A DNA stretch of 63,961 nucleotides, the filler included, from Thelocarpon superellum (taxonomy: Eukaryota): NCBI GenBank assembly GCA_026025795.1. It is 7 parts of 7 records of this genome, joined end to end, with 100 filler letters (N's around TTAATTAATTAA, not from the genome) between each part and the next. Parts side by side here need not be neighbours in the genome. Positions count along the whole stretch, not along the records: positions 39,734 to 49,541 come from JAPEUG010000554.1; 6 more parts are not named here. The stretch is one strand, 5' to 3'. Position 1 is the first letter of the stretch. Every line of letters starts with the position of its first letter. The position numbers and the translations under genes are program-made. Positions 22,632 through 48,346 of this stretch are shown in pieces. Under the pieces are notes generated by a model that did no database searches, was not told the DNA's origin, and was given only the letters and a program-made list of their open reading frames with translations.

Positions 22632-22957
22632 GCTTCGACTCACGTCATCAATTAGTAAGCTCAGTGGAATGTGAGTGTTTAGATAGAAGGTGTAAAGGAG
22701 TGCTCCTCGAAGCGGTGTTTGGGTGGTAACATAGTTACGAAGAACTTCGTACGATACGGGAGCCAGGAGCCATGTTGACGGAGCGAACGGTGCTCGTCGC
22801 CACCCTCGTCTAATTCGTCCGGGGCCGGGAGCTTTGCCTGTGAGCTGCATGACTAATCGATGGACGGATGTCGACAAGTCAACGCCCACCTCCTTGACAT
22901 TTCTGGCTCCAGGTCAAGCACCAAGTAGTCTGGTCGTTCACTTGTCATCGATTCACC

Positions 22958-24190
22958 ATGAAAGCGCCTGGGGTGCTGGGCATATTGTGCGTCCTGCTGC
23001 TTGTGGGCATAGGGTGCGCCGAGCACACATCCAACTGGGCCGTGCTCGTGTCCACATCACGCTTCTGGTTCAACTACCGGCATTTGGCCAATGTGCTCTC
23101 CCTCTACCGGACAGTGAAGCGGCTGGGCATCCCGGATTCTCAAATCATCCTGATGCTCCCTGACGACATGGCCTGCAACCCTCGCAACGCCTTCCCCGGT
23201 ACGGTGTATAACAACGCCGACCGCGCCCTGGACCTGTACGGGGACAACATCGAGGTCGACTACCGGGGGTACGAGGTCACGGTCGAGAACTTCATTCGCC
23301 TCTTGACGGACCGCGTGGGAGAAGAGATGCCCCGAAGCAAGCGGCTCTTGACCGACGACCGAAGCAACATTCTGGTCTACATGACGGGCCATGGCGGGAA
23401 CGAATTCCTGAAGTTCCAGGACGCCGAGGAGATCAGTGCCTTTGACCTTGCCGACGCCTTTGAACAGATGTGGGAGAAGAAGAGGTGAGTGTTGTGACAT
23501 CACGGATGCGCGCTCTAGCTGATCACGTCTGTCAGGTATCACGAGATGCTCTTCATGATCGACACCTGCCAGGCAAACACCATGTACAGCAAGTTCTACT
23601 CTCCGAACATCATCGCCACCGGCTCGTCCGAGATCGACCAATCCTCCTACTCTCACCATGCCGACAACGACGTCGGCGTGGCCGTGATCGATCGGTATAC
23701 CTACTACAACCTCGATTTCCTGGAGACACACGTGCGGGAGCCCGGATCGAAGATGACGCTTGGAGACCTGTTCGAGAGCTACGACGAGAGCAAGATCCAC
23801 TCACATCCTGGTGTGAGCTACGACCTCTTCCCCGGTGGAGAGCAAGCCGGGCGCGAGCGACTGGTGATGGATTTCTTCGGCAATGTGCAGAACGTGGAGG
23901 TAGAAGGAAGCGCCAACGCGACGGAGAGTGACTGGAAGGAAGACCTGACGCTACTTGCACGCATGATTGCGGCCAAGCGGAACCAGAGTCTCCCAAACGA
24001 CGAGAACGACGAGGTCATTGCAGATCCGCAGCCGGAGAAGACGACGACGAAGACGACGGGGTCCAAACGCGCCGGGGCCGTCAAGGTCCAGGCCGAAGAA
24101 GGCTGGACGCACCAGGCCATTGGCGCGTCGGCGTTGGTGGGCTGTGCATTGATATGGCTGGCGGGATCCTGGGTTGATGGGCGGGGATGA
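22958..24190 (+). CDS. GPI8: GPI-anchor transamidase catalytic subunit (peptidase C13); intron 23485-23535
   Basis: [20 protein letters not shown], catalytic YMTGHGG and IDTCQA, C-terminal TM segment. Confidence 0.97.
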
Positions 24191-33488: not shown

Positions 33489-34414
33489 GACCACTGTACA
33501 ACTTCACAACGGACTCAGTCGTCGGCCAAAGCCACTTGCAGGCGGATAGGGAGGGACGAAAAGCATGGTGTCTCCGAATAATCATCTGGTCGTCTTCCTC
33601 AACTCCACCAAGAGGGCGTCATCTTCTCGGCAACTTCCGGCGTCAGGAACGATCAATGCTGCTTCTGATTTGGCATCCAACGTCTGGATGGAGAGCTACT
33701 CCTGCACATAATGCCCCTTGAACTTACGCCCTGAGGGTTGCATTGACATCGCCGAGGTCATGCTGACCGACTCGTCATGGTCAATTCACTCTGGGCCACG
33801 TCCTGGAGAAGTTTCGGACTGAATGAAACATCCTCACCATCGTTGGCTCTATATTGCCGACTCCTTCAGGCTATTGGGTGACCAGATACCGCCTCACACG
33901 ACCTCGGCGTTGTGCGAAACCAGAATATATTTGCGCACAGCTCCTGCCTACCTATACCATGCAAGTGAATGCGATGTTTGCACGACATGAATGATGGGGA
34001 ATGACAAATCCATGCATGTCTGGACCAGGATACCTGGGCTACGTGTTACGAATGCCTCTCCGGCCTTGTCATCGACTTGCTCGACGGCTTCACTTCTGCA
34101 TCGGTCCGTGCTGACTCGTTGCCTATGACGGCCTGCACCGCGACCACCGTGAATAGCACGGCGTCGCTCATGTATGGGAACCATGCCGACCTCGATTCCG
34201 TTTGCGAAGCCATCCAGCCTCTCAAGACAATCCTGTCTTTGGGAGACGGGGGTCATGAGCGGAAACGTTCGAGCGTTGCCGGCGTAGGCAGGCCATCCGT
34301 GGGTGTATGAACACGCTGTAAATGCTCCCCGTTTCACTCGCACTCATTCCCGAGGCCTGGAGCATGACCGCGGGATTCATCCGGACCGACCAGTGGCAAG
34401 ACGACCCGACGTCG

Positions 34415-35104
34415 TCAATCCGGCGGGCTAGCAGGTCGTGTCAGTCCCCTGGTGACGAAAAGGGAACGTGGATATCCGTGGGAGACGTACCAGCGGATAC
34501 CGTCATTATCGGGAGAGATCTTGTGGTCCATCTGGTAACCCCATGATCCGCCCCAGTCAGAGGTCGTGAGCGCCGACTGCCTTTTACATTTGTTGTAGAG
34601 ATTCTGGAAGCTATGGAAGCGTGTGAAATCAGCGTCCCATCGTCTCGCATCTCTCATCTCTCAACTCTCATGCCCCCCGGTCGGTGGTATGTGGAGCGGC
34701 CATGTCATGTAGGGACAAGTCACTCACGGATCCCAGAGCTCCGCCACCGTCGCCGACGAGCGATTACACCAGTTCTGCCAAAACGAGGCCAGGCAGTTGC
34801 CAGACTGCGCGTTGAATTGTCGGCCATCGAGCATCACCACCTGGCCATCCTGGCTGTCATCGGGCAACCTTCCCCACCCGGGCGACATTTGATCGAGGAC
34901 GCCGAGCGCGGCACCGAGGCAGGTGCTGGGATCGCAGGCCGCACGAAGGCACTGGGTAGTCGGCTTAGACGGATCCACCATTGTGGACGCCGGTCTGTCG
35001 TCTATCCCCACCATGGTGCCATTCTTCAGGGGGTAGGCAACCAGGCCGAACCCCCCGGCCGATGAGAGCAAGGCAAAGAGGCCGAGGGACAGAATCCGCA
35101 GCAT
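34415..35104 (-). CDS. Small secreted Cys-containing protein; introns 34611-34727 and (in frame) 34428-34490
   Basis: Signal peptide MLRILSLGLFALLSSAGG. The GTGAGT..CTGAT..TAG intron joins ..AELWDP to FQNLYNKCKRQ..; 6-7 Cys depending on the second intron. Confidence 0.7.
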
Positions 35105-35977
35105 CGCGAATCAAGGACCGTCAAGTGTGAGACATGCTCTGGAAGACGTGGGGACGGTCATGTCTGACGCATGGTCTGGAAGATGAAACGACCGTTGAAT
35201 GTGTGACGAGATCAGGAAGATGCAATGACCGTTCGCACGGCACACGATCTGAGAGACCAACGTAAAGACGGCACCGTCGGACGGAGCGGGATGCCATCCT
35301 CGAGAGAGGCATTGATGGTATGGCATGTGGCGAAATACCTCCCACGCGGGTGGTTCAGGGCCCAAAGGTGAGTCCAATAATGTCTCATCTACTTTGCTTC
35401 GAGCGCAAGCTATCCTCGTACTACGGATAGTAGAGGAAGCTTGGGCGCTCCGTGGGGGCCGGTGAGATGGTGCCTGTCGAGGATGGAGATAAGAAGAGGT
35501 TGGGTGAAGTGTCAAAGCGATGCTGTATGTCTCGCTTGGCCGCCTACCTCCCGCACTCTTACTCGTACTCGACGCGCGACATATAATTGGCCCGAACGAA
35601 TTCTAATAATCCTTCCGAAGGGTTGAAGTAGGATATACTAGGACTCCTAGGTCGGATTACGTAAACAACGACGGTGTGGGACTGCATAAGGAGGAGCCCA
35701 CAATGCCCGTTGCATGTGACGGCATACATGGGGCAAAGATTTCATATTCATCCTCGACTCTTGCGAGCATTTCTCCGTCCTCCGTGGCCGTGGACCAAAT
35801 CTCCGTCAGTGACTCCAGTGGCGCCAGTGCAAACAAATTGGCGTCCGTGGATCTGATGTCCTCCAACGGGGTGAAGCATCTGGATCGACGCCGAGGCTTT
35901 ATCCTCGCATCCGAGACGCGGACGGTCCACGCACGAAACCCTCCCCTCGATGCTTTCGTCCCCTGCTCCGAGGGTGG

Positions 35978-36432
35978 CTAGTTTGGATCTCCGCTATCGT
36001 AGCCACAATGCCAGGTCGTCGCGCACTGGCACTTGTCCGCATTATCGCAGGCTTCGGGCACGCCGGTGGTGGGCGCGTCCTTTTTGGGGTGCATGATGTA
36101 AAAGTAGGGCTCGCACTCGCGATACTTCCGACAATCTTGCGTGGTGGCATTGTCCGGATGGCCTCGATACCAGTCCTGCTCCCACTCGCCGCAGTAGACC
36201 TTGTTTATGCATTCGATGTTGGAATCACCAAAATCCGACGCATTGACCTCCAGCGCCACGGCTCGCGTCACGCTCTGGGTCATGAGGAGACAGAACATGA
36301 AGTCTGCACCGAGATGCGCCCATCTGGTCAGTCGAACGGGTCTCTCTCAAGCTTGCCGTTACCGGCAGATGGCGGCAGATCTAGTCAACCACGCAGGTAC
36401 ATACCAAGTCCTGACACGCCGAGAAACTTCAT
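35978..36432 (-). CDS. Small secreted 8-Cys protein, about 117 aa; intron 36304-36404
   Basis: Exon 1 MKFLGVSGL splices (GTATGT..CTGAC..CAG) in frame to DFMFCLLMTQSVTRAVALE..; mature part has 8 Cys. Confidence 0.72.
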
Positions 36433-37603
36433 CGTGACGGTGATTGCGAGTTTGAGATACTTGAAGGGATGCGTGGGGCAAGATTGATAATTTGACAATT
36501 TGGACAGCAAGCTGGAAAAGGTCGAGGCGGAGCAGTTATCGAGCCAGCAGACACGCTTATCCTTATCTTCTCTGAACATCATCCAAACGTGTGTAGCCAG
36601 GAAGGGAAAGAGTTGGAGAGCATACGGCTGAGGATCTGATCGACCGAATGCGCCGACAAGCCTGGCACCTACTCACATGACATGTTGCAGATGGGAAGAA
36701 GTGCACGAATCCCTCCACTGGCGAGCGTTCGCTTCATGCTTCTCCACACGGAGCTGCTTGGCAGGGAAGGATAAGTCAACATGTTCCGAGGGTAGAAGGA
36801 CGGTGTTCCTGAGTGAGGAAGGTCTGCTGAACACAACGCGTCTTCATTAGACCTGGACCTGTTGTGCTGGGGCCGGGTCCGCATCGTGTCGAGGTCCACT
36901 CGTGTCATAGCGTATCACATGCCGAAGGAAAAAGGGCCTCATTGCCAAGCAAAATCATGGTTCTAAGTGGAGTCGGCAGGTGGATGTCAATTTTGGTGCC
37001 ATGATCTGATCCATGACCCTCAAAGAACTGCATATGACAGACAAGATACCAAGACAGATGTCGCTCCATCCTACTCATGATTACTCGTGGGCTTTGGATG
37101 ACATTCGTCGAGCGTTGTCAAACTGTGTTGTTGGATGAAACTACGCACGCGGTGCACCGAGGATCTCGGGGATGAGGCACGGAGGATTTCGTATGCGCGC
37201 GATCTTTGTCACGTGGTGAGACGCATCTCAAAGCCCGTAGTTATGGCGTGTTCGTTGCTGGGCTCCGACGTGGAAGACTCATTTCTACCAACCATCTTAA
37301 CTTCTTTTTACATACTTAGTCAGGTCGCATGAAATAGTCTGTCGCGGAACCGATCAACATCAATCTCGATTTGGCAGTGCCTGTCCGCTCATCTTGCTGG
37401 ATTGATGTCATCGCACACCAACTCTAGGAGCGTTGTCGTAACGTCGCGTTCTGCTACATGATGATCTGGAGACTCAGACGGCTATCATGTCTGTCCGATA
37501 CTGACCATCCTTTGTGCTGTTCCGCTGAGCTCTGTCGCAATTGGAACGTCGGCACAATGGCCCCTTCTCCATGTTCGCCTCGTACGCCAGTATTCCCCGG
37601 TCA

Positions 37604-38227
37604 TCATCGACCTTTCGAGGCCTGTTGTGAAGCTTCTGCGGACATCCAATATGCCAACTTAGCGGAGCCTTCATAGAATCCCCTTTGGGCGATGGACAGC
37701 CACGTACCTCTCCTGGTCGCATCCTCCAGTAAGGCTGTGTCCACTGCGCTCCCCGGGAGATGCACGTAGCGAACCACGCTCCCTCTAATGAAGACGTTCT
37801 TGACCGATGACTACAGGCAGCGTAGGATCATTAGCCATGGTGACTCCTCGTAGGGCTCCCGCTTGTCGCCCGCGGTTGCATGCAGTGAGGTGGATCGGGA
37901 AATGGAAGAGCAGAAGGCCCATCCGACGCACCAGATGCGGATACTTCAGCTCCTCGACGACCTGGATATCGTCGAGTTTGATGTTGAGATACTGATCTAC
38001 GCTCTTGAGCGTTCCGCGAATGGAAATGTCGTTTTTGAGCTCGACCGTAACCTCGTGGTCCACGAGCGTCTTGAAGAAGCTGTACACCCGACCGATCAGC
38101 CAAGCCGCACCGAATGATCAGGGAGCAAGTGCAGGATGCCCGAGCGAGCGAACATGGAAGTGGCTCCGCGAAGTGGGGTGCGGCTGGAATGATCGTCGCC
38201 AGGGATGGCATACCTGAAAAACAACAT
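37604..38227 (-). CDS. LSM2: U6 snRNA-associated Sm-like protein Lsm2 (4 exons)
   Basis: Spliced product MLFFSFFKTLVDHEVTVELKNDISIRGTLKSVDQYLNIKLDDI..YPHLSSVKNVFIRGSVVRYVHLP..LLEDATRREASQQASKGR*. Confidence 0.96.
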
Positions 38228-38575
38228 GGCCGCGTTTGCGGGCCCTTGTTGGGCCGAGACCTAGCAAATGTAACGTGGAGAGATGCTGGTAAACTAGCGA
38301 GCAGATTCCCTGTTGTGCCGTTGCGTCGTGTGGAGCAGAAGGCGGGATTCGTGTGGGACATGGATCGATGGCGGACGAAGTTTCGGTAAGAGGCATCCTG
38401 GTCGCCAACTTCGCCGATCATTGTCAAAGAATCAACTACTGGACTACACTTTCACACGAGAGATATCGCTGTCCATTTTCTTTGCAAACCATGCCTACAA
38501 TCGCTCGGACAAGACCCCATGATTCCAGAAATACAAGGCCATACTCGAGAATCACGACCCAAGATCACACCACGG

Positions 38576-39633
38576 CTACATCGGTATTCCCAGCCCCATC
38601 TCGGTACGCTTGCTAAAGATCTCCTCCGGCACCCGGTTCGAGGCGAGAGTTGGGCTACTCCGGTTCGTCCATGATCGAGAGACGGTCGAGGGTGTACATT
38701 GTGTGTAGTGGAGTGGGACGGTATGGACTTCGATACTGTCTGCTTCAAAGATAGTATCGAGGTTGGGCTGCGGGCCGGAGCCCGGTGGAAGGGCCGGGCC
38801 TGGTAGGATCTGGCCGTCCAACGGCTCCGAGGGCATCACGGGCGAATGGTACATCTGCCCATTGGTATTGATCGCCGGTTTGTAGATGGATGAGGTCGAC
38901 GTCTCGGACTGGCCTCCGGGTGAGACTAGACGCTAGTGGGTCAGCTGGACAGCGTTCACGCGGCGGAGCGGGGGATAACACCAACCTGTACTCGAACTCT
39001 GCGGTGTCTTTAGTGCTTCATACATGTCTCCCACTGTTCGGTCTGGGGGGAAAGATTGCGTCGCCTTGGGATGGTTCGACCGCCGAGCCACCTTTCGTGC
39101 CCTCCGCCGCCAGATGGCCAAGGCCAAGGCGACCAGACCGATCACACCGGCAGCACCAATGACTCCGCCAGCGACCGCGGGCGCGTTTGGCTGCCGCGAG
39201 GCCGAGACAGCAGTCGACGTAGCGCTCGACGTCGTCGTGGGCGGAGCGGTCGAGGTCGACGTTGAGGTCGATGATGTGGTCGTAGTATTTGCCGCCGTCG
39301 ATCCTAGGCCGGCAGCCAGCAGGTCGTGCGAGGGACAACCGATCCCATTACAGGGATTGCTTTTGCAGCAGCCCTGAAAGGTGGGAAGCTGGGCAGCGCA
39401 CGTCCACCACAAGCCGCCATTCGGGCATGAGTGGCTCGGGGCAAATGCTGCGTTTGCTCCCAACTCAGCAGGCTCCAGGTCGCCCGCCGGACAGCCGACG
39501 CCATTGCATGGATTGCTTTTGCAGCATCCAAGGTAGGAGGGGTTCTGGTCCGCGCAGGAATACCAGAGGCTGCTGTTTGGACAGGCCGCAACAGTATCCT
39601 GTCGTCGATCCACGCCTGGCATCCTGGCAGGAT
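38576..39633 (-). CDS. Single-pass membrane protein with tandem Cys-rich extracellular repeats, S/T stalk and cytoplasmic tail; 5'-truncated
   Basis: Two repeats CPNxxLWxxC..GCCKSNPCNGxGCP, Thr/Ser tract, TM VAGGVIGAAGVIGLVALALAIW followed by RRR. A probable intron near 38933-38985 leads into ORF 38576-38854. Confidence 0.75.
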
Positions 39634-39733
39634 NNNNNNNNNNNNNNNNNNNNNNNNNNNNNNNNNNNNNNNNNNNNTTAATTAATTAANNNNNNNNNNN
39701 NNNNNNNNNNNNNNNNNNNNNNNNNNNNNNNNN
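39634..39733. other. Artificial contig linker
   Basis: N44-TTAATTAATTAA-N44. Confidence 0.99.
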
Positions 39734-40731
39734 CCGAGGGTCTTCGGACGGTTTCAGCGTCACAAGCTGATCGCTAACTACTTCCACGCTATCCCTTCGA
39801 CCCCTGGATCGCTGACGGCGGCCGGTGGCGTTTCTCCACGGCGCCTGTGCTAGTTGCAGCCGGCAGGTACTGTCGGCCCCCCGAGAGCAAGGTCCAATAT
39901 ACTCGTTGCAGCCTCGGGAACCCTATCGAAGCCTACCGGCCCAGGCGAGTCGAAGAGATCGGTCCGTGTAGCCAGTACGAGCTCGAGCCATCAGCAACGA
40001 GTACAGGGGATGAACGGTAGCATCTTATCGTAGTCGCATCATTCGATGGATAGCATGTCCTTCTTCCTCCTCCTATAATCCTGGCCACCGTCGGTCTCCA
40101 TTAGCGTCAATGACCGGACTACTTGGTCCCATCGATGACGGATTATGAGCGGGTTGCTCTCACGTACTCCTCTTCCATCGGTCATCTGCACGTTTTTGCC
40201 TTGGCCCGACCAGCTATCGCCGATGGATTCGTATGCAATGGTCTGTCGTTGTCTTGGATGCAATGCCGCAAGGAAAAGAGCGTGCGCTTTCCATTTCTCT
40301 GGCAGGATCACCCTGGGAGGGGTGGCGTTTTCCCACGCCGATGGCCCTCCGTAGCGGTGGTGTGCTTAACCCGAAGTACCTGTACCTAGTGATTCGCTCA
40401 GATGGAGGTTGTGCGGCGGTATCAGTACGAGAATACGGAGGCTGGGCTAAGCCGCGGGTCAAAACCGCCCGGACGCCACGCTCAATGCAATGTCGCCCAT
40501 CCCGGCGGTTGGCGATCATGATCGCCCTAATGTAACAGTAACGACCTGCTCTACGAGTGCCACCACGTTCTTTTCCAGTTACGACGCCCGCAGGCTCATG
40601 ACATGACCCTCGCGACAGGCGACGTGCATTTACAGGGTACATAAGTTGGGCTATGCGCGGGCAGAGGGGCCGTGGAAGAGCTGGAGTCGCCGTCTGAGCC
40701 TTGACCTTGACCCCGACCGGTGCCGGGGACG

Positions 40732-41327
40732 ATGCCGCCAACGACGCCGTCGTACATGCCCCACCCCCAACCCAGCGCCGCGGACCATCCGAGTACGTCT
40801 ATGAACGGCACAGTGTCCGTCTTGAAGGTGCGTGATCATCGCCGACACTGAATGTTCGCGATGATGTTTACCAGACATAGACGGTTCTCGTACCCGCGTT
40901 CATATCACTCGCCATCTACCTGCTCTTTTCTTACCTGATCCTGCCATGGTGCAAGCGACACCGGCATCGATATGACCAGTACCTCCCTTTGGACCGCCTC
41001 TCGAGCCAGACTACGTCCTTGCAACAACGCCTTTCTGATGCGGCCATAACCCTGTTGATGCCCTCGTCATGGGCGCGTGACCGCCACCACCGGATGATGG
41101 ATGGATTGGATCCTACGACGGATGATGACAACAGCAGTCTCTTCGATGATACAGAAGGCGAACATATGGTGGGCTTCGAGATCCATTCGCGACGGCGAGA
41201 GGCCCTAGACTTCCCCAGTCACGAGACTGCTGGGGAATCACGACGGTTGAGTCGTGACTTGGAAGAAGGGTTTCGGGATGACAGCGACGACAACGATGAC
41301 GGCGAGGCCAACGACACCAACCGCTAG
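40732..41327 (+). CDS. Small single-TM uncharacterised fungal protein; intron 40828-40880; start uncertain (40732, 40756 or 40801)
   Basis: Splicing gives MNGTVSVLKTVLVPAFISLAIYLLFSYLILPW..RYDQYLPLD..RRLSRDLEEGFRDDSD: TM followed by a basic patch and an acidic tail. Confidence 0.75.
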
Positions 41328-43391
41328 CAGGACGACGAATCACCGCGCGCGGTTTCATCATCCACTATTCCTTACGCATGCATCTTATGGATAAATGGGG
41401 GCGTTGTTCCAGATCGTTTGGATACATGGTTGCTGGAGTCGTGAGGTTTTCAATATCACCCTCGCCGAGCCAACCATACAGTTACCAGTACTTCGGAGTC
41501 GTCATCGGTCATCCGTAAACGGCTTCGTTAATACATGGCATATGCCGACCGAGTCCGCCTTACATCTCTCTCGTCAGCACTTGTCTGACTCAGAGCAAGG
41601 CGAGATGTGCACGGCCTAGCTAGGGCTGCCGTCGTGCCTCCGGAGCAACTTATGCTGTTGGGAAGGTCTCTTAGATGCAATCTACTTGTGCATAGGAAAC
41701 GCACGTCCGTGGGGTACATTGGCACAATGGCACTTGTATATTGCCCGCCTGGCAGTGGCAAGCGCACCGCCACAATCCTGAGCCTCCTTTCGTCTCCCGT
41801 CGTTGCGATTAAATTGATCGAGTCATAGACGAGTAACTGCGAGTGTAGTTGGCAGAAGTATCGCATCAGCAGCCTCATCCAGTTGCCGAGCTCTTCCGAG
41901 AAACCCGTGGTAGTCGAGCAATGTTTCCAGCAGAATGCAAACAGGTAGCCAGAGGCCTCATCCTCCGGTGCAACCTCATGACTGGGCCCCACTACGACCG
42001 GCTCCTCGCGGTCAGGCCATTCGACTACTAGCCGCTAACCGGGACGCCAGTGACCGGCATGTTAATTGGGCGGATGACTCCATGCCGATGCTCAGCCACC
42101 ATCTGGCAGAATGCCTGGCGCCAAACAAATGGTTATTCTGGTGTGAGCGCGTCTCGAGCCAGGCTGACGATGAGTCCTCGGGCAAAGATGACTCGCTTAT
42201 GGATGAGGAGAGCATGGCACTGCTCGCAGGCGACTGGCTGACCGGATGGCTCCGGTAGGGAACTGGGTTGGCCCCATGTTCAGCCCACATATGCTCCCGC
42301 CAGGAATCGCACCACGTCTAGTTCGCGCCCACAGGCCTGATGACCGGGCATCGTCGAGATTTCCACGGGCAGCCGCGTCGAGGCTCAAGCTGAGGTTGCA
42401 TCATAGCCTCGAAGCATGATTGTCGCGTGCGCCACGAGTGCGAGCGGAACAGGGGATGATCACCTGTATGACTCCACAGCCCTGCAGTAGAAGCCCGCAT
42501 GGAAGGCCGCCAGAAGCGTAACCTGTGTCCCCCACCTCCTGGCTCACTAACTCTCCCAGAGTTCGGCGCCCCTGGTGAAGCCAGGACGACAAGCTCCTGC
42601 TCTCATCACTCGCCCTTCCTGTACTCGTACGCGTACCCGGTCCTTTGCCTTCTACCTTCAGATGGTCATACCACTGGAATTACGCAAGTGGGAGCTCCTA
42701 AACGAGGCACTACATGACCGCGATGACACTCTTGCTGAGGGCATATCTATCTTAAGAATCGACACGACAAGGCGTTTCTAGGTCGCACGGATTTGTTTTC
42801 CGACCCCATCTCCATTGTCCTCCCATTATCTCCGGAGGTCGTAGACAATGTTCCGTAACGGCCGAAGCTACCAGAAACGGCCCGGTAGTTTCACGCGTAG
42901 ACGGGCACACGGCAAAACACAGGCCACCACCCCGGTTCCCGCATAGCGTGTGGCCCTACTCCGTGCGCCTCATCTATTGTGGCTGAAGACCAGGGCCCGA
43001 GGGCTATATCGAGTCATCCGTGTCGGCGCGCCGATGGCCTTAGCGTTGCTGAAGGGCCTGCGGTGTTCGACGCAGGGTCTCGGCGTGCCGAAATGACGAC
43101 ATTGTGGATAGGAGGCGGGTCTCGCTTTCATCGCTCCACCGGTCCGTTCCGTCAGCGGGCAGTGATGGGTGATGGAGGGGGGGCAGCATCGGAGTAGGCG
43201 ACCGGGAACACAAGGTACTGACATAGATGGAACAAGCGGGAAACGGTGGTGCCTGTCTGCTAGGCAGGGCAGGCCGGGTAGGCATCCGCCCAGGCGCCCA
43301 GGCAGGGCTTATCTTGTGCTTTGTGCGTCTCATGTCACTTTTCTTCTCTGGCGCCGCCGTTGTCTTTCTGTTATAGACTTGCAGCATTTCA

Positions 43392-43397
43392 TATAAA
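43392..43397 (+). promoter_or_regulatory. Candidate TATA box of the micro-ORF transcript
   Basis: CATATAAAG followed by a CA/CT-rich leader-like tract. Confidence 0.55.
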
Positions 43398-43680
43398 GTC
43401 AATGGCTGCTTGCCTTGCATGCCCTCCCACATCCACATGCTCTATCACACCCACAAATCTATCACGGCCATCCACACTCGTCTCCTCTCTCACACGTCCA
43501 CACGTCCATACATCACCATCTCCATCCAGAGACCTCTGGACACCAACGAGCCTGAAGAATTGAAATCTTTTCTCGACAACAGGACACAGGGCAAAGCTCC
43601 GCACCACACGTGAGCCCAAATCTGCTCGAGCTCGACCAATTATCGTCTCATCGCATTAAGCAGCCTTTGAGCTCGACACC

Positions 43681-43707
43681 ATGATGGGCCGCGGCGGATA
43701 CAACTGA
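43681..43707 (+). CDS. Candidate micropeptide MMGRGGYN
   Basis: First ATG after an ATG-free leader (43441-43680) that contains a candidate intron 43610-43663 (GTGAGC..CAG). Start context CACC-ATG. Confidence 0.55.
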   Translation: MMGRGGYN

Positions 43708-44115
43708 AGGAAGCGACTGCATCGCCACCTCTGCTCAGCATCGATTCCGCACTTCTCCGATGGGTCACGGCGGAAGATATTGAGCGGCGAGAGAATATTG
43801 GGCTTGAACTGGAGGGTCTCACCCTCCCGGACCAAGGAGGAATATCGCTATGCTAGCTGAAAGCGTCGAGACGAGTCGGGACGAGCGTGCGCTACGTATC
43901 GCCCGAGATCATAGGGCAGTGACAAGCACCACACAGCAGAAGTTGGACAAAAGCTGGACAGCCATGTGGCAGGTCAGGAGAGGAGACAGAGTGGACTTTG
44001 GCGAGACGGGATCAAGCGAGAGGAATATCGAGTCAGCAAGAGAACACGGACCTCATCAGACAGGAGGAGGAAGCGCGGAGTCAATTCATGAGAAAGTCAA
44101 TGAGAGCGTGAACGG

Positions 44116-46106
44116 TCACTTCCCAACGCAGAACCTATCACATTGTGAACCGGTCAGTCAAGACACCATCAACGCCAGCGTAGAGGCCCTCACTTTTCAA
44201 ACACCACGCCGAGCACGGCTTCCACGTCGCCCGCCTCTCCCTTCCCCGTGATTTTCCCCAGGCTGGACGCTGCAGCGCGCAGACTCTCCGCGGCGACCAC
44301 CACGTCAAGGTCGTCGTTAGAATGTCCCAATTGGTCACTTGACGCGCGAGTGATGGTCGAGAAAGTCTGCAGGTGTGCCAAGCACTCGTCGAGGAGAAGT
44401 CGCTGCCGCTCGGTTGCACCAAGCGAGGCTTCCCACATTGACCGATCAGTCGGCACTACCGCCTGGTCTCCGGAGGCGGTGGGCAGAAGCGGGTCCGTCA
44501 TCTCCTGGAACTTCTCCACAAGCCCAGCTAAGAGCGTTTGGATTCCTCTGGCGTCTGCCCTGGCTTCTGAGGGCCCCACATTCGCTTTACATGACACGCC
44601 GAAGATGCTCTTGCGTGAGAGATGGGCAACTGACGCCATGAGGGCCGGTGCCCACTCTTTCGACATTCTTGTTGAGGCGTCATCCACTCGGTCGAGTTTG
44701 TTAACGACGGCCACCACATTTCCGGTCCGTCGGTTGATCTTTGCAGCGGCTTCCAGCACATCCGCATCCACGCGTAGGTGAAAGGCTTGGCCATCGAGGT
44801 CTGGCTCCACGGAGCACATGAGGATCACGACGTCCGACTCGGCCGCTCGTTCTTTGGCACGCTGGATCCCTTCGTGCTCCACCAACCCGACGGGGGCGAT
44901 CTCACGCGACCCTGCGAGCTCTTCAATGCGATCTTTGGCAAGCGTGCGTCGTATGCCGGCCATGTCCGCGAGTCGGCAATACCAGCCGTCAATGTCCACG
45001 CCGATCTCGATGACGTCCCTGGTGGTGCCAGCTTCTGTGCTGACGATGGCGGCCTCGCGACCAACGATACGGTTCAACAGCGAGCTCTTCCCGACATTGG
45101 GGGCCCCCAGTAAAGAGATGCTGAGCCCGTTGCGTCGCAGCTCTCCTCGCATGGCGTTGGCCCTGAAGGTCTCGATCTGGGCTGCCAGCGCCTGAACTTG
45201 CATCGCCACGGAAGACGTCAGGCTGGTCGGAGTCTCATCGAAGTGCTGATCCTCGGAGAAATCGATGAGTGCCTCCAGCTCGCCGCGAGCCTGTAGCAGC
45301 TGATGACGCCAGGCTTCATACTGTCGCGCCAGGGCTCCCGATGTCCCGCGCACCGAGAGACGGCGTTGTTGCTCGGTTTCGGCGGCAAGAGAATCACCCA
45401 GGGCCTCGATCTGCGTCACGTCCAGGCGGTTATGAAAGAAGGCTCGCCGGGTGAATTCTCCCGGCTCCGCATAATGGATCCGGCCTGTGGCAGAGGTGGT
45501 GCAACGAGGGATGGCGGCGAGCACGGCTTTGATAGTGGCAGATCCTCCGTGCACATGAAGCTCAAGAACCTCCTCGCCCGTGACGGTATTCGGCGCCGGA
45601 AAATAAAGGACCAACGCTGCGCTATCAAGGATGGTGTCGGCCGTGGGAGGGACAGAAGGTTCATGGAGCGTCCGGACCGCGGCTACACGGGGCTTGGGGA
45701 GGGACCGGTTGGGGCACAGCAGGTAGTATATCTATAATTCAGAGATCAGATATGATTCATATTGATGCTATCTTCGTCCCTTGGCGCTCACGTCTCGACA
45801 TGCTGGGCCTGAGATACGAATCACGGCAATCGCGGCTCGACCAGGGGCGGAGGAGAGGGCATAGATGGTAGACGCGGGAGCATCATGGCTGAGAACTCTG
45901 GACAGGCCGTTGCCCGGTGGGACACGCCTGGAGGCATGGGTGGTCCTTCGAATGGGCTGCGCGGTGGGACTCAATTGAGCGGGAACCAATTGACTTCTGC
46001 AAAGCCTGCTCGGCGCTGCTAACGACGGCCATCGAAGACCGCCAACAAGTCTAGTCTGAATACCATGGCGCGAGATGCTCCCTGTGGAAGGGAAACGGCA
46101 TGGCAT
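44116..46106 (-). CDS. MSS1: Mitochondrial tRNA-modification GTPase Mss1/MnmE; introns 45732-45791 and 44135-44193
   Basis: TIYALSSAPGRAAIAVIRISG, ELHVHGG, AEPGEFTRRAF, GAPNVGKSSLLN, GTTRDVI, NKLD, and spliced C-terminal FCVGK*. Confidence 0.96.
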
Positions 46107-46431
46107 GGACAGCTAGACAGGTCGCGCTGTCGGGGTCAGATGTCTGCACTTGATGAGGTCGCTCACAGCATATCTTGCACGGTGGCTCGCCTCAGTGGGT
46201 GAAAAGCTTCAGGCGACAAGCTCCAGGCGGCGACGATGGTTCCGGAGGCTCGACCGGGCAACTCTACACGCGATGTCGTCGTTCGCCGGGAACTATTGCC
46301 GACTCCACCAGAAATTCGTAGATTTGTGCGCCAACGAACGCCAGTCGTCCGGCCCAGTCACTCTTTCATATCCTGGCTGACCGCGGGTCCGGACAAGCCA
46401 GTCTCAACTACGCTGAGCTAGGTCTGCAAGG

Positions 46432-47597
46432 ATGTCGTCCGACGAGATCGTGTGGCAGGTTATCAACCAGCAATTCTGCGCCTTCAAACTCAAGTAAGTT
46501 GATCGATCCGCCCGGGCAACACTCGTCCAGCTGACTTGAAATGCTAGAACGACGAAAGATCAAACCTTCTGTCGCAATGAGTACAATGTTACCGGCCTCT
46601 GCAATCGGCAATCCTGTCCCCTGGCCAATTCTCGCTATGCCACAATCCGCGCCGACCCGACTACGGGCACGCTCTATCTCTACATGAAAACGATTGAGCG
46701 GGCGCACATGCCGTCGAAGCTGTGGGAACGGATCAAGCTGTCACAGCACTATGCGCGCGCCCTCGAGCAAATCGACGAGCGACTCATCTACTGGCCGAAA
46801 TTCCTGATTCACAAATGCAAGCAACGCCTGACCCGACTGACCCAAGTGGCCATCCGCACCCGGCGGCTGGCGCGGGAGGAAGAGCGGCTCGGGGAGAGAC
46901 TGGTGCCAAAGTTGGCCCCCAAGGTCCGACGAAAGGAGGAGACCCGCGAGCGGAAAGCCGAAGCGGCGGCCAAGGTAGAGCGCGCCATCGAGCGTGAGCT
47001 CATCGAACGATTACGTAGCGGCGCATACGGTGATCGACCACTGAACGTGGAAGAGGGAGTATGGAAGAAGGTGCTGCGAGGTCTGGAGCGTGCGGGGGAG
47101 GGTACGCGAGACGAAGACCTAGATGAAGGAGTCGAGGAAGAGGAGGAGCTCGAAAAGGAGCTGGAGATGGAAGAGGAGGGCGTGGGAGACATCGAGTACG
47201 TCAGCGATCTCGAAGGCGAGGACGATGATCTCGAGGATCTCCAGTCTCTGCTGGGCGAAGACGAGGATGGGGACATCAACGATGCGGCTGAGGACGAGGA
47301 TGAGGATGAGGATGAGGATGAGGCCGAGGGCGATGATGTGGACGAAGAAGATCAGGACGAGGATGAGAGCGATGACGAGAGCGGTGACTCTACTGTCGAC
47401 GCGGGGCCAAAGAAGGACGAGGCAGGCATCAAGCGGAAGAGAGGCAACGAGCCTCCGCCCAAAGCCAAGAAGAGAGGCAAGGTCCCTGTTTGTGGTTTGT
47501 CTGGTCACTCTACTAACCAAATGCAGCGTCACGTGTGGAGATTGAGTACGAGCTGGAGCACGATGTTGCGCCTCGTGAAGGCGTTTATGCGCAGTGA
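46432..47597 (+). CDS. MAK16: Ribosome biogenesis protein Mak16; introns 46494-46547 and 47477-47526 (GC-AG)
   Basis: [64 protein letters not shown], acidic tract, C-terminal VEIEYE. Confidence 0.96.
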
Positions 47598-48346
47598 CGG
47601 ACGGACTCGACTAGAACTGAGGTTGGCAACGTCTGAGACATGGCTATGAGTCATATCACACCGAAATTCATCAAATCAATGGCGTGGCGCTCATCGTACA
47701 ATGAAGGTGTAAACGTCTGAGCCTACGCGTGATGCAGGCCCCCAAGGTGACCCACTCCTGATTAAGACACATTGAACACATTCGCCGGATATTGGAAATT
47801 AAAAATCGGAAACTGAAAATGAAGAAGGAGTTTATTCCCACGCACGACCTTTCACTGACGACTACGTCTGTCGAGCGCGGATGATCCGATAATATTCCTG
47901 CCCATTGTTCCGTGTACCGTCGCCGGAGCGAAGTTGACAGCGGGTCACTTGTAGAGGTGGGGGACGAGGAGGAAAATAAGGAAAATACGAGGCTACTCGT
48001 ACTGCGTCCCAGAACTTTTGACGGCGAACTGCCCCACTACTATGACGAATGCGAGCCTGACACAGAATTGATTACTACTGGTAGTCCAGTAGTCCATACT
48101 GTGGCAGGCTCGCATTCGTCATCCCCTCACGATCGGGCAGCTCACCTATCGCCAATGCCACCTGCCACGAACCCCCCCTCTGTGACCAATGGACCTCTCA
48201 GACCCCACCGCACGATGCATGTCCGCCGGCTATGATCTCATTTGAGCCCAGATAGTGAGATATAATCCCGACCCGGGCCTCGTGATCGACGTTGACGGTC
48301 CGTCGCAGCACTTCGGTCTCGGTGGGTCGAGGCTTGTCCGCGCAGC

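What the first reader, a model, noticed from the sequence alone, without database searches (positions are those of the whole stretch)
43390..44110. Apparent spliced transcription unit whose first ORF is the 8-aa peptide MMGRGGYN
Seen: TATAAA at 43392; a C/A/T-rich leader with no ATG from 43441 to 43680; a 54-nt GT-AG intron candidate in that leader (43610-43663, weak branch site); CACC-ATG-ATG-GGC-CGC-GGC-GGA-TAC-AAC-TGA; then about 400 nt of purine-rich sequence up to the convergent MSS1 stop. This is the layout of a well-expressed fungal gene, but with a product far below annotation thresholds. From unverified memory, 'MGRGGYN' ends various hypothetical ascomycete gene models, as expected if a conserved micro-ORF were repeatedly mis-extended by predictors. 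Inference: a conserved, uncharacterised micropeptide (signalling or ribosome-stalling), or a coding-constrained lncRNA.
Basis: partly seen in the sequence, partly recalled or inferred. Interest (0 to 1): 0.85.

Follow-up and report, generated by a model that had tools for sequence, protein, structure and literature searches.

The report
Conserved fungal GRGGYN micropeptide gene
The eight-codon reading frame is real and is the smallest form of a previously undescribed family of fungal genes that all encode the same six-residue peptide unit, GRGGYN, so it is probably a genuine micropeptide gene whose function is still unknown.

Summary
Taken alone they are not beyond chance. Comparison with other fungi shows that the ORF is conserved.

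- **Synteny.** MSS1-bearing fungal metagenome contigs were fetched. In 7 of the 14 with at least 1.5 kb downstream, an ORF starting MGRGGYN lies convergent to MSS1, as in the window.
- **Coding signal.** Between lineages the 18-nt motif is 79% identical and the flanks 26%. Changes fall almost only at synonymous positions.
- **Formats at this locus.**
  - Aureobasidium has a 54-55-aa ORF with three GRGGYN units (dN/dS 0.10-0.21).
  - A Pleopsidium-like lichen fungus has two tandem micro-ORFs, MDRGGYN* and MGRGGYN*.
- **Wider family.** A profile search found 69 small proteins. The 24 that carry an organism name are all fungal, from ascomycetes and basidiomycetes.
  - 68 have at least two exact GRGGYN units and 53 end in GRGGYN.
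  - Some have signal peptides and KR sites.
- **Not previously described.** No Pfam family matched, and no paper mentioning the motif in fungi was found.
- **Downstream ORF.** The 133-aa ORF has no homologue and is not coding-like, so this is not a uORF.
- **Untested.** Transcription, the leader intron and translation; no RNA run was listed.

The most likely product is a free peptide ending in GRGGYN. Its function is unknown.

The parts
43392..43397 (+). TATAAA, candidate core promoter of the micro-gene
   Evidence: It is one of only 3 TATAAA on the + strand of the window. TATA-like elements also lie 163-211 nt upstream of the first motif-frame ATG in L002-L004, L006 and L007. Its function as a promoter is inferred.
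43441..43680 (+). ATG-free C/A/T-rich leader
   Evidence: The Aureobasidium loci have the same kind of leader: G 0.08-0.09, and no ATG between the TATA region and the coding ATG. The transcription start is not known.
43610..43663 (+). Candidate 54-nt GT-AG intron in the leader (unverified)
   Evidence: GTGAGC...GCAG. I see no good branch site, and no RNA data could be obtained. Splicing would not change the ORF: an in-frame stop lies upstream either way (my reading).
43681..43707 (+). Micro-ORF MMGRGGYN plus TGA. The second ATG, at 43684, gives MGRGGYN.
   Evidence: Both ATGs have A at -3, and 43684 also has G at +4. The ORF is conserved as an MGRGGYN-starting ORF convergent to MSS1 in L002, L003, L004, L006, L007, L008 and L009.
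43687..43704 (+). The six codons of the GRGGYN unit (GGC CGC GGC GGA TAC AAC)
   Evidence: Across 13 copies, variable columns by codon position are 1, 1 and 4. Identity between lineages is 79%, against 25.7% in the flanks.
43760..43783 (+). Second, degenerate micro-ORF MGHGGRY plus TGA. It is the next ATG after the first ORF.
   Evidence: The 16-nt repeat GATGGGYCRCGGCGGA matches the first copy at 88%. L006 has two intact tandem micro-ORFs in the equivalent layout. That this is a decayed second unit is inferred.
43708..44115 (.). 408-nt purine-rich spacer between the two convergent stop codons, probably holding both 3' UTRs
   Evidence: The stop-to-stop distance in relatives is 163-487 nt. No Rfam match reaches a gathering score.
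43850..44251 (+). 133-aa ORF, rejected as a gene
   Evidence: 0 hits among 1.84 billion representatives and no Pfam match. GC by codon position is 0.60, 0.53 and 0.55, against GC3 of 0.62-0.82 in the window's long ORFs. It overlaps the last exon and intron of MSS1.
44116..44134 (-). MSS1 terminal micro-exon (K)FCVGK plus stop
   Evidence: My reading. FCxGK* was found in 13 of 13 related loci examined. It is absent from the public model P0071, which ends ...GVVFEK.
44135..44193 (-). MSS1 terminal intron (GTGAGG...CTGAC...TAG, 59 nt)
   Evidence: My reading. The lichen-fungus loci have an equivalent gap of about 50 nt before FCxGK*.
44194..45731 (-). Main exon of MSS1 (TrmE/MnmE GTPase), the convergent neighbour
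   Evidence: Pfam TrmE_N, MMR_HSR1 and MnmE_helical. It is 100% identical to P0071.

Best explanation
The 8-codon ORF at 43681-43707 is the coding part of a small stand-alone gene. It is the single-unit form of an undescribed fungal family whose members all encode the hexapeptide unit GRGGYN.

**Shown**
- The unit is kept at the amino-acid level while its codons and everything around it drift.
- The same unit is delivered by three gene formats:
  - micro-ORFs of 7-8 codons (the window; two in tandem in L006);
  - leaderless 42-70-aa ORFs with 2-6 units (ascomycetes);
  - signal-peptide proteins with 2-5 units, often followed by KR or RR (Suillus, Lentinus and unnamed sources).
- A unit is nearly always followed by a stop or a basic residue, and the protein usually ends in GRGGYN.

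**Inferred**
- RNA polymerase II starts downstream of the TATAAA at 43392.
- A scanning ribosome meets no ATG for about 240 nt and starts at 43681 or 43684.
- It stops at the TGA and releases MMGRGGYN or MGRGGYN.
- Methionine aminopeptidase normally removes an initiator Met before Gly. That would leave exactly GRGGYN if translation starts at 43684.
- The short ORF would allow re-initiation at the next ATG, which here opens a decayed copy.
- The active product is a short peptide with a free ...GRGGYN C-terminus, recognised by a conserved partner.
- It is probably a peptide signal. It would be made directly in the cytosol here, and made through the secretory pathway by Kex2-type cleavage in basidiomycetes.
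For: **1. Synteny.**
- One search returned 17 MSS1 loci, of which 14 have at least 1.5 kb downstream of MSS1.
- In 7 of the 14 (L002, L003, L004, L006, L007, L008, L009) an ORF starting MGRGGYN lies on the opposite strand, 294-670 nt past the MSS1 match.
- These are two lineages: Aureobasidium, and a clade with Pleopsidium flavum.

**2. Coding signature.**
- Motif identity between lineages is 555 of 702 (79%), against 1174 of 4563 (25.7%) in the flanks.
- Gly and Arg codons vary freely (GGC/GGT/GGA/GGG; CGC/CGT/AGA).
- There is one amino-acid change in 13 copies (G to D).

**3. Chance.** GRGGYN is seen 14 times, against 0.0 per shuffle.

**4. The multi-unit form is a real gene.** dN/dS is 0.10-0.21, and CDS identity is 85-95% against 56-89% in the leader.

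**5. Family.**
- There are 69 proteins. 68 have at least 2 exact units and 53 end in GRGGYN.
- Of 221 units, 184 are followed by R, K or a stop.
- All 24 hits that carry an organism name are fungal.

**6. Translation layout.**
- In the window, L002-L004 and L006 the motif ORF is the first ATG after an ATG-free leader.
- In L006 no ATG lies between the two micro-ORFs.

**7. No alternative product.** The 133-aa ORF has 0 homologues and no coding-like composition.
Against: - There is no expression evidence of any kind for this organism.
- The single-unit format is seen in only two lineages (the window and L006).
- The window's second unit is decayed (MGHGGRY*), which also fits a gene in decline.
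- In L007, L008 and L009 (identical to one another) the stop after N is replaced by AAG. That gives a 19-aa product that does not end in GRGGYN.
- L001, an Aureobasidium contig, has lost the gene through a deletion of about 600 nt relative to L002.
- Six further loci, from another clade or unplaced, lack it beside MSS1. The gene is therefore dispensable or mobile.
- In the Hyaloscypha-type proteins, internal units are followed by AP, not by a basic residue. Release of every unit as a free peptide is therefore not general.
- No receptor, modifying enzyme or transporter is linked to the gene.
- Peptides of 6-8 residues are usually short-lived in the cytosol.
- The search collects candidates by shared 5-residue words. 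Finding GRGGY-containing proteins is therefore partly by construction.
Confidence: 0.65

Rival explanations
1. The window copy is a dying remnant of a multi-unit GRGGYN gene. A nonsense change after the first unit (for example CGA to TGA, at the place where relatives have Arg) truncated it. The second unit has already decayed, and nothing functional is made here.
For: - In Aureobasidium the first unit is followed by an Arg codon (CGC in L002-L004), where the window has TGA.
- The second unit is degenerate and in another frame.
- The gene has been lost in L001 and is absent beside MSS1 in other loci.
Against: - The first unit, its two well-placed ATGs, the ATG-free leader and the TATA box are all intact, although the flanks have diverged to random identity.
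- L006 independently keeps two intact stand-alone micro-ORFs, each with its own ATG and stop. The format is therefore viable.
- By the family's own rule (unit followed by a stop), a one-unit ORF still yields the conserved C-terminus.
Confidence: 0.15
2. The unit works as a short linear motif, not as a released peptide. GRGGYN(R) would be an RGG-type site bound or methylated by a conserved nuclear factor, and the small proteins or peptides would act as decoys or competitors. From recall, S. cerevisiae Hrp1 carries GRGGYNR in its RGG/PY-NLS region, which is bound by Kap104 and methylated by Hmt1.
For: - Ascomycete members have no signal peptide and carry 2-6 units. Multivalency suits a decoy.
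- The string RGGYN occurs in a paper on PY-NLS recognition by Kap104 (PMC2408616). I saw only the search listing, not the text.
Against: - Nine members outside Aureobasidium have signal-peptide-like N-termini. Several have KR after each unit, which points to secretory processing.
- The family lacks the PY element of a PY-NLS.
- A single 7-8-residue peptide is a poor decoy.
- The Hrp1 likeness rests on recall and was not tested.
Confidence: 0.1
3. It is a cis-acting regulatory ORF. Either it is a uORF that controls the downstream 133-aa ORF (43850-44251), or translation and stalling on it tune the convergent, probably overlapping MSS1 transcript.
For: - It is the first ORF of the putative transcript.
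- Its linkage convergent to MSS1, with 163-487 nt between the stops, is conserved in three lineages.
Against: - The 133-aa ORF has 0 hits in 1.84 billion representatives, lacks coding-like composition, and overlaps the MSS1 exon and intron.
- Relatives have no conserved ORF after the motif ORF.
- The same unit occurs in proteins of fungi where no link to MSS1 was examined, some of them secreted.
- MSS1 keeps its place without the micro-gene in 7 loci.
Confidence: 0.05
4. It is a chance ORF in non-coding DNA, or an element conserved at the DNA or RNA level.
For: Within the window the layout alone is not unusual.
Against: - Variation falls at third codon positions, and Arg switches between CGN and AGA.
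- GRGGYN is seen 14 times, against 0.0 in shuffles.
- There is no Rfam match, and the flanks cannot be aligned.
Confidence: 0.02

Closest known systems
tarsal-less / polished rice (tal/pri/mlpt) polycistronic smORF genes of insects (from established knowledge, not from a call)
   Same: - Stand-alone transcripts with no long ORF.
- They carry tandem tiny ORFs, each encoding the same conserved short motif.
- The number of units, and whether they are fused, varies between lineages.
- L006 (two tandem micro-ORFs) and the window (one intact, one decayed) have this layout.
   Different: - A different kingdom and a different motif (LDPTGXY against GRGGYN).
- The ORFs are 11-32 codons there and 7-8 here.
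- The insect peptides have a known partner. Here no transcript or partner is shown.
KEX2-processed repeat proteins (KEPs), including alpha-factor-type pheromone precursors (PMC7329392 and PMC6339444: I saw the search listing with the start of each abstract, and searched their held supplements)
   Same: - The basidiomycete-type family members have a signal peptide.
- They carry 3-5 identical short units.
- KR or RR directly follows the unit.
   Different: - The window's gene has no signal peptide, no repeat and no dibasic site. The product is translated directly at its final size.
- The strings GRGGYN, RGGYN and GGYN do not occur in the held supplements of either paper.
Qsp1 quorum-sensing peptide of Cryptococcus (recalled, not from a call)
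   Same: A small dedicated fungal gene for a short peptide that is exported and then acts inside cells after import. This would reconcile the secreted and cytosolic formats.
   Different: There is no sequence likeness. Qsp1 has a pro-peptide and a known protease and importer. Nothing of the kind is shown here.
Sequence-dependent regulatory uORF peptides (fungal arginine attenuator peptide; MAGDIS of AdoMetDC; recalled)
   Same: A very short ORF, conserved at the peptide level, placed first on the transcript.
   Different: Those sit upstream of a conserved main ORF and act in cis. Here there is no conserved downstream ORF.
MccA, the 7-codon microcin C precursor gene of enterobacteria (recalled)
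   Same: A 7-codon gene whose heptapeptide ends in an invariant Asn.
   Different: It is bacterial and needs an adjacent MccB (ThiF-type) enzyme. None was found among the 69 window ORFs scanned.

Membership tests
GRGGYN-unit peptide genes (unnamed family, defined here) | Exact hexapeptide G-R-G-G-Y-N | tested here: met
   43687-43704 encodes GRGGYN. All 69 family proteins have at least one exact unit.
GRGGYN-unit peptide genes (unnamed family, defined here) | The unit is followed by a stop or a basic residue, and the product ends in GRGGYN | tested here: met
   TGA follows at 43705-43707. In the family, 184 of 221 units are followed by R, K or a stop, and 53 of 69 proteins end in GRGGYN.
GRGGYN-unit peptide genes (unnamed family, defined here) | Two or more units in one ORF | tested here: not met
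   The window ORF has one unit, whereas 68 of 69 database members have at least 2. The two micro-ORFs of L006 share the one-unit format. ORFs this short cannot appear in the protein databases.
GRGGYN-unit peptide genes (unnamed family, defined here) | Orthologous position: convergent to MSS1, first ATG after an ATG-free leader behind a TATA-like element | tested here: met
   7 of the 14 loci with enough flank share the position. Context could not be examined for the database proteins.
KEX2-processed repeat proteins (KEPs) | N-terminal signal peptide | tested here: not met
   The product is 7-8 residues and has no hydrophobic segment.
KEX2-processed repeat proteins (KEPs) | Three or more repeats separated by dibasic (KR/RR) sites | tested here: not met
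   One unit and no dibasic site. Relatives such as P0042, P0043, P0048 and P0062 do meet this feature.
Regulatory uORF peptides | A conserved main ORF downstream on the same transcript | tested here: not met
   The 133-aa ORF has 0 hits and non-coding composition. No conserved downstream ORF is seen in relatives.
Polycistronic smORF genes of the tal/pri type | Two or more motif-bearing smORFs in tandem | tested here: inconclusive
   The window has one intact and one degenerate ORF. L006 has two intact ORFs 107 nt apart with no ATG between them.
Polycistronic smORF genes of the tal/pri type | The smORFs lie on one mRNA and are all translated | not testable with these tools
   No RNA holder was listed, and no genome or reads were available.
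Microcin C-type heptapeptide precursors | An adjacent MccB/ThiF-type adenylyltransferase | tested here: not met
   No ThiF-type family appeared among the 12 + 57 window ORFs scanned against Pfam. Apart from four shorter ORFs in the 41.0-44.3 kb region, only stop-to-stop ORFs of 150 aa or more were scanned.

The most novel reading that the evidence does not exclude
GRGGYN is a peptide signal or peptide ligand shared across the Dikarya, older than the split between ascomycetes and basidiomycetes. The window holds its minimal gene, a stand-alone nuclear gene of 7-8 codons. That would be shorter than any stand-alone eukaryotic protein-coding gene I can recall (RPL41 has 25 codons and tal/pri has 11). 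It would be translated as the first ORF of a short mRNA and, where units are in tandem, by re-initiation. The same active peptide would then be produced in three ways: direct translation, a leaderless multi-unit protein, and a secreted Kex2-type precursor.
Probability: 0.35. Interest if true: 0.9.

Novelty: new variant of a known kind. Interest (0 to 1): 0.8.

Why it matters
- **Annotation.** ORFs of 7-8 codons are invisible to every annotation pipeline. The public MSS1 model for this organism, next to this locus, also lacks its last exon. Here comparative evidence alone shows that such an ORF is under peptide-level selection.
- **A new family.** The ORF links to a family of small fungal proteins that has no Pfam model and that I could not find in print. 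The family spans ascomycetes and basidiomycetes.
- **Possible signalling system.** If the peptide is a signal, it would be a new and widely shared fungal signalling system. It can be tested directly in culturable carriers such as Aureobasidium, Exophiala and Suillus.
- **Gene evolution.** It would be a natural example of one peptide being delivered by three different gene architectures.
- **Method.** It gives a concrete search pattern for finding micro-genes in fungal genomes.

Tried and rejected
**RNA and genome evidence**
- RNA evidence: no RNA holder was listed for 43300-44300, so read laying could not be used.
- Whole genome: none is held for this window.
- Rfam over 41000-46500: only two sub-threshold matches, to a bacterial sRNA model and an archaeal snoRNA model. 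I treat both as chance.

**Other ORFs and neighbours**
- The 133-aa ORF as the real gene: rejected.
- Extending the ORF at 43419 or the micro-ORF across the candidate intron or other nearby AGs: every splice I tried by hand runs into a stop (my reading).
- Read-through of the TGA: the frame stays open for 49 more codons. The sequence is not protein-like, it was not searched for homologues, and no equivalent is seen in relatives. I did not pursue it.
- Neighbourhood for processing enzymes or transporters: only housekeeping families were found in the window. Nothing is shared on the far side of the micro-gene in L002, L004, L006 and L007; 1 of 30 ORFs had a Pfam hit, a CFEM domain in L006.
- No ORF from window 33.5-44.1 kb matched any locus.

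**Family look-ups**
- Pfam on 10 family members: nothing above the cut-offs.
- ESM Atlas: weak leads only for P0048 (best 0.84; an MF_alpha cluster at 0.81). No usable hit for P0037.
- Cluster look-up of 10 unnamed members gave no organism names.
- A search of the records behind the metagenome loci for further copies was not possible.

**Literature**
- 'GRGGYN' found 5 papers, none about fungal peptides.
- 'RGGYN' found 59 papers, 16 of them when combined with 'fung'.
- 'GRGGY' with 'fungi' found 5 papers.
- All of these concern RGG or NLS proteins, plantaricins, or are word accidents.
- The held supplements of two KEP surveys do not contain the motif.
The supplements of the third KEP paper (PMC9769878) and the text of PMC2408616 were therefore not seen.
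Full report
**Observation**

- TATAAA is at 43392.
- Three ATGs lie just after it (43402, 43419, 43437), and then none until 43681.
- GTGAGC...GCAG spans 43610-43663.
- caccATGATGGGCCGCGGCGGATACAACTGA (43681-43707) gives MMGRGGYN*.
- The leader is C-rich and G-poor, and the 400 nt after the ORF are purine-rich.

MSS1 on the minus strand is a TrmE/MnmE GTPase by Pfam. Its coding sequence does not end at 44190. It continues through a 59-nt intron (44135-44193) into a micro-exon encoding FCVGK* (44116-44134).

Inside the window the layout is unremarkable.
- 27 of 1031 ATG gaps on the + strand are at least 240 nt.
- 16% of ATGs open ORFs of 8 codons or fewer.
- Only the TATAAA is rare, with 3 copies on the + strand.

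I also found a second micro-ORF, MGHGGRY* (43760-43783). It opens with a 16-nt repeat of the first at 88% identity.

**What could not be tested**
- No whole genome is held.
- No RNA run was listed, so I have no evidence on transcription, the leader intron or translation.
- Rfam gives nothing above threshold.

**Organism**

The MSS1 ORF is 100% identical to an NCBI protein named 'MAG: mitochondrial splicing system protein [Thelocarpon superellum]'. The next best hits are 58-60% identical. Thelocarpon is a member of the Pezizomycotina of uncertain class. There are therefore no close relatives to compare, and every comparison below is deep.

**Comparative test**

I searched metagenome contigs with the C-terminal 337 residues of MSS1 and obtained 17 loci.
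- One locus (L017) is a 30% match and was set aside.
- Two loci (L005, L014) have less than 400 nt downstream of MSS1.
- Of the other 14, 7 (L002, L003, L004, L006, L007, L008, L009) carry an ORF starting MGRGGYN. It lies on the strand opposite to MSS1, 294-670 nt beyond the match, as in the window.

I built a quick MSS1 tree; the careful search did not finish.
- L001-L005 fall inside Aureobasidium (support 100).
- L006 falls beside Pleopsidium flavum (support 95), with L007, L008 and L009 (identical to one another) as the next branch.
- L010-L014 and L016 form a separate clade that lacks the ORF beside MSS1.

The ORF takes different forms.
- L002-L004 have a 54-55-aa ORF: MGRGGYN...GRGGYN...GRGGYN*.
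- L006 has two separate micro-ORFs 107 nt apart, MDRGGYN* and MGRGGYN*, with no ATG between them.
- L007-L009 have MGRGGYNKTRAVCLSGMLC*, where L006's TAG has become AAG.

L001, a close relative of L002, has a deletion of about 600 nt that removes the gene. Stop-to-stop distances to MSS1 are 163-487 nt in relatives and 408 nt in the window.

**Coding signature**

Thirteen copies of the unit were compared.
- All four Gly/Arg third positions vary, and Arg switches between CGN and AGA.
- TAC AAC is invariant.
- There is a single amino-acid change (G to D).
- Identity between lineages is 79% in the 18 nt and 25.7% in the flanks.
- GRGGYN occurs 14 times in 205 kb translated in six frames, against 0.0 per shuffle.
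- A relaxed pattern finds only two unrelated extra hits.

Within Aureobasidium the whole small ORF has dN/dS of 0.10-0.21 and is better conserved than its leader and 3' flank. This is selection on a peptide, not on DNA or RNA.

**A wider family**

The L002 protein finds 22 small 'hypothetical proteins'; all 12 that carry an organism name are Aureobasidium. A profile of 17 of them finds 69 proteins at E of 10 or less, with only the 8000 best candidates scored.

The distant hits have weak E-values, but they are unmistakable on inspection.
- 68 of 69 have at least two exact GRGGYN units, and 53 of 69 end in GRGGYN.
- Of 221 units, 96 are followed by R, 35 by K and 53 by the stop.
- 24 of 69 carry an organism name, and all 24 are fungal:
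  - Aureobasidium spp. (15);
  - Exophiala mesophila;
  - two Hyaloscypha species;
  - Aspergillus arachidicola;
  - four Suillus species;
  - Lentinus brumalis.
- From general knowledge, these taxa span the Dothideomycetes, Eurotiomycetes, Leotiomycetes and Agaricomycetes.

The ascomycete members start at or just before the first unit and have no signal peptide. Nine members outside Aureobasidium have strongly hydrophobic N-termini by a crude hydropathy measure. These include Suillus and Lentinus proteins, and UniRef names one of them 'Secreted protein'. Several of the nine have KR or RR directly after each unit (13 KR in all). That is the architecture of Kex2-processed repeat proteins.

One caveat applies. 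The search gathers candidates by shared 5-residue words, so recovering GRGGY-containing proteins is partly by construction. Their small size, their repetition, their ending on the unit and their fungal origin are not by construction.

No Pfam model matches 10 members, and the ESM Atlas gave only weak leads.

**What the window locus is**

The ORF is the one-unit member of this family.
- It sits at the orthologous place.
- Its leader has the same character as in Aureobasidium (ATG-free and G-poor).
- A TATA element lies at a comparable distance.
- Both ATGs have A at -3, and the second also has G at +4.

The 133-aa ORF downstream is not a gene.
- It has 0 hits among 1.84 billion representatives and no Pfam match.
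- Its GC3 is 0.55, against 0.62-0.82 in real genes.
- It overlaps the last exon and intron of MSS1.

So this is not a uORF.

The neighbours are housekeeping genes: MAK16, Mso1, a PSO2-type nuclease, Laa1, a GPI8-like peptidase and others. The MAK16-MSS1 pair is syntenic in most loci. Nothing on the far side of the micro-gene is shared between lineages.

**Mechanism**

Shown:
- peptide-level conservation of GRGGYN;
- three delivery formats;
- the rule that a unit is followed by a stop or a basic residue;
- products that end on the unit.

Inferred:
- A short Pol II transcript is made.
- Translation starts at 43681 or 43684 and releases MMGRGGYN or MGRGGYN. Met removal before Gly would give GRGGYN.
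- The active entity is a peptide with a free GRGGYN C-terminus, recognised by a conserved partner.

In secreted members, Kex2/Kex1-type trimming would expose the same C-terminus. I rate 'genuine peptide gene' at about 0.65 overall, and 'diffusible signal' lower, as the novel case states.

Rivals:
- a decaying remnant of a multi-unit gene (0.15);
- an RGG-type linear motif acting as a decoy for a nuclear factor such as Kap104 or Hmt1 (0.10). This is a lead from recall of Hrp1, plus a search listing only;
- a cis-regulatory ORF (0.05);
- chance (0.02).

**Novelty**

The motif was not found in connection with fungi in the full-text library.

The nearest known designs are the insect tal/pri polycistronic smORF genes and the fungal KEPs. 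The window's gene meets the defining features of neither. It fits the new family in everything except unit number.

Noticed in passing
window 44116-44193 (- strand): MSS1 has a 59-nt terminal intron and a 19-nt last exon encoding (K)FCVGK*. The public protein model for this organism (P0071, 500 aa) stops at ...GVVFEK and so lacks the conserved C-terminal FCxGK motif.
   Followed up: yes
L001:2660-2663 compared with L002:2216-2813: One Aureobasidium contig lacks the whole three-unit GRGGYN gene and its promoter through a deletion of about 600 nt. The flanks remain 91-93% identical. This is a presence/absence polymorphism within the genus.
   Followed up: partly
window 43837-43847 and 44020-44030: The exact 11-nt repeat GAGGAATATCG occurs twice in the spacer between the two convergent stops, with a similar GAGAGAATATTGG near 43788. 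It is unexplained. It could be a 3'-UTR element of either transcript.
   Followed up: no
window about 33500-43390: About 10 kb upstream of the micro-gene has no Pfam match in any of the ORFs scanned and no tblastn match to the related loci. The far side of the micro-gene is similarly poor in recognisable genes in L002, L004, L006 and L007.
   Followed up: partly
window 44190-47649; L004-L013, L016: The divergent MAK16-MSS1 gene pair is conserved in most fungal loci fetched, whether or not the micro-gene is present. Mso1 follows in L007, L008 and L016.
   Followed up: partly
L007:7590 region (- strand), about 276 nt upstream of its MGRGGYN ATG: An ATGGGACGTGAG... start (MGRES...) lies upstream of the L007 motif ORF. 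It may be a decayed first micro-ORF matching L006's MDRGGYN*. ATGs at -19 and -16 also open 1-2-codon ORFs there.
   Followed up: no
window 22898-24190 (+ strand): A Peptidase_C13 (GPI8/legumain family) gene is split over two ORFs, presumably by an intron, 20 kb from the micro-gene. I noted it only because C13 enzymes cleave after Asn. No link is shown.
   Followed up: no
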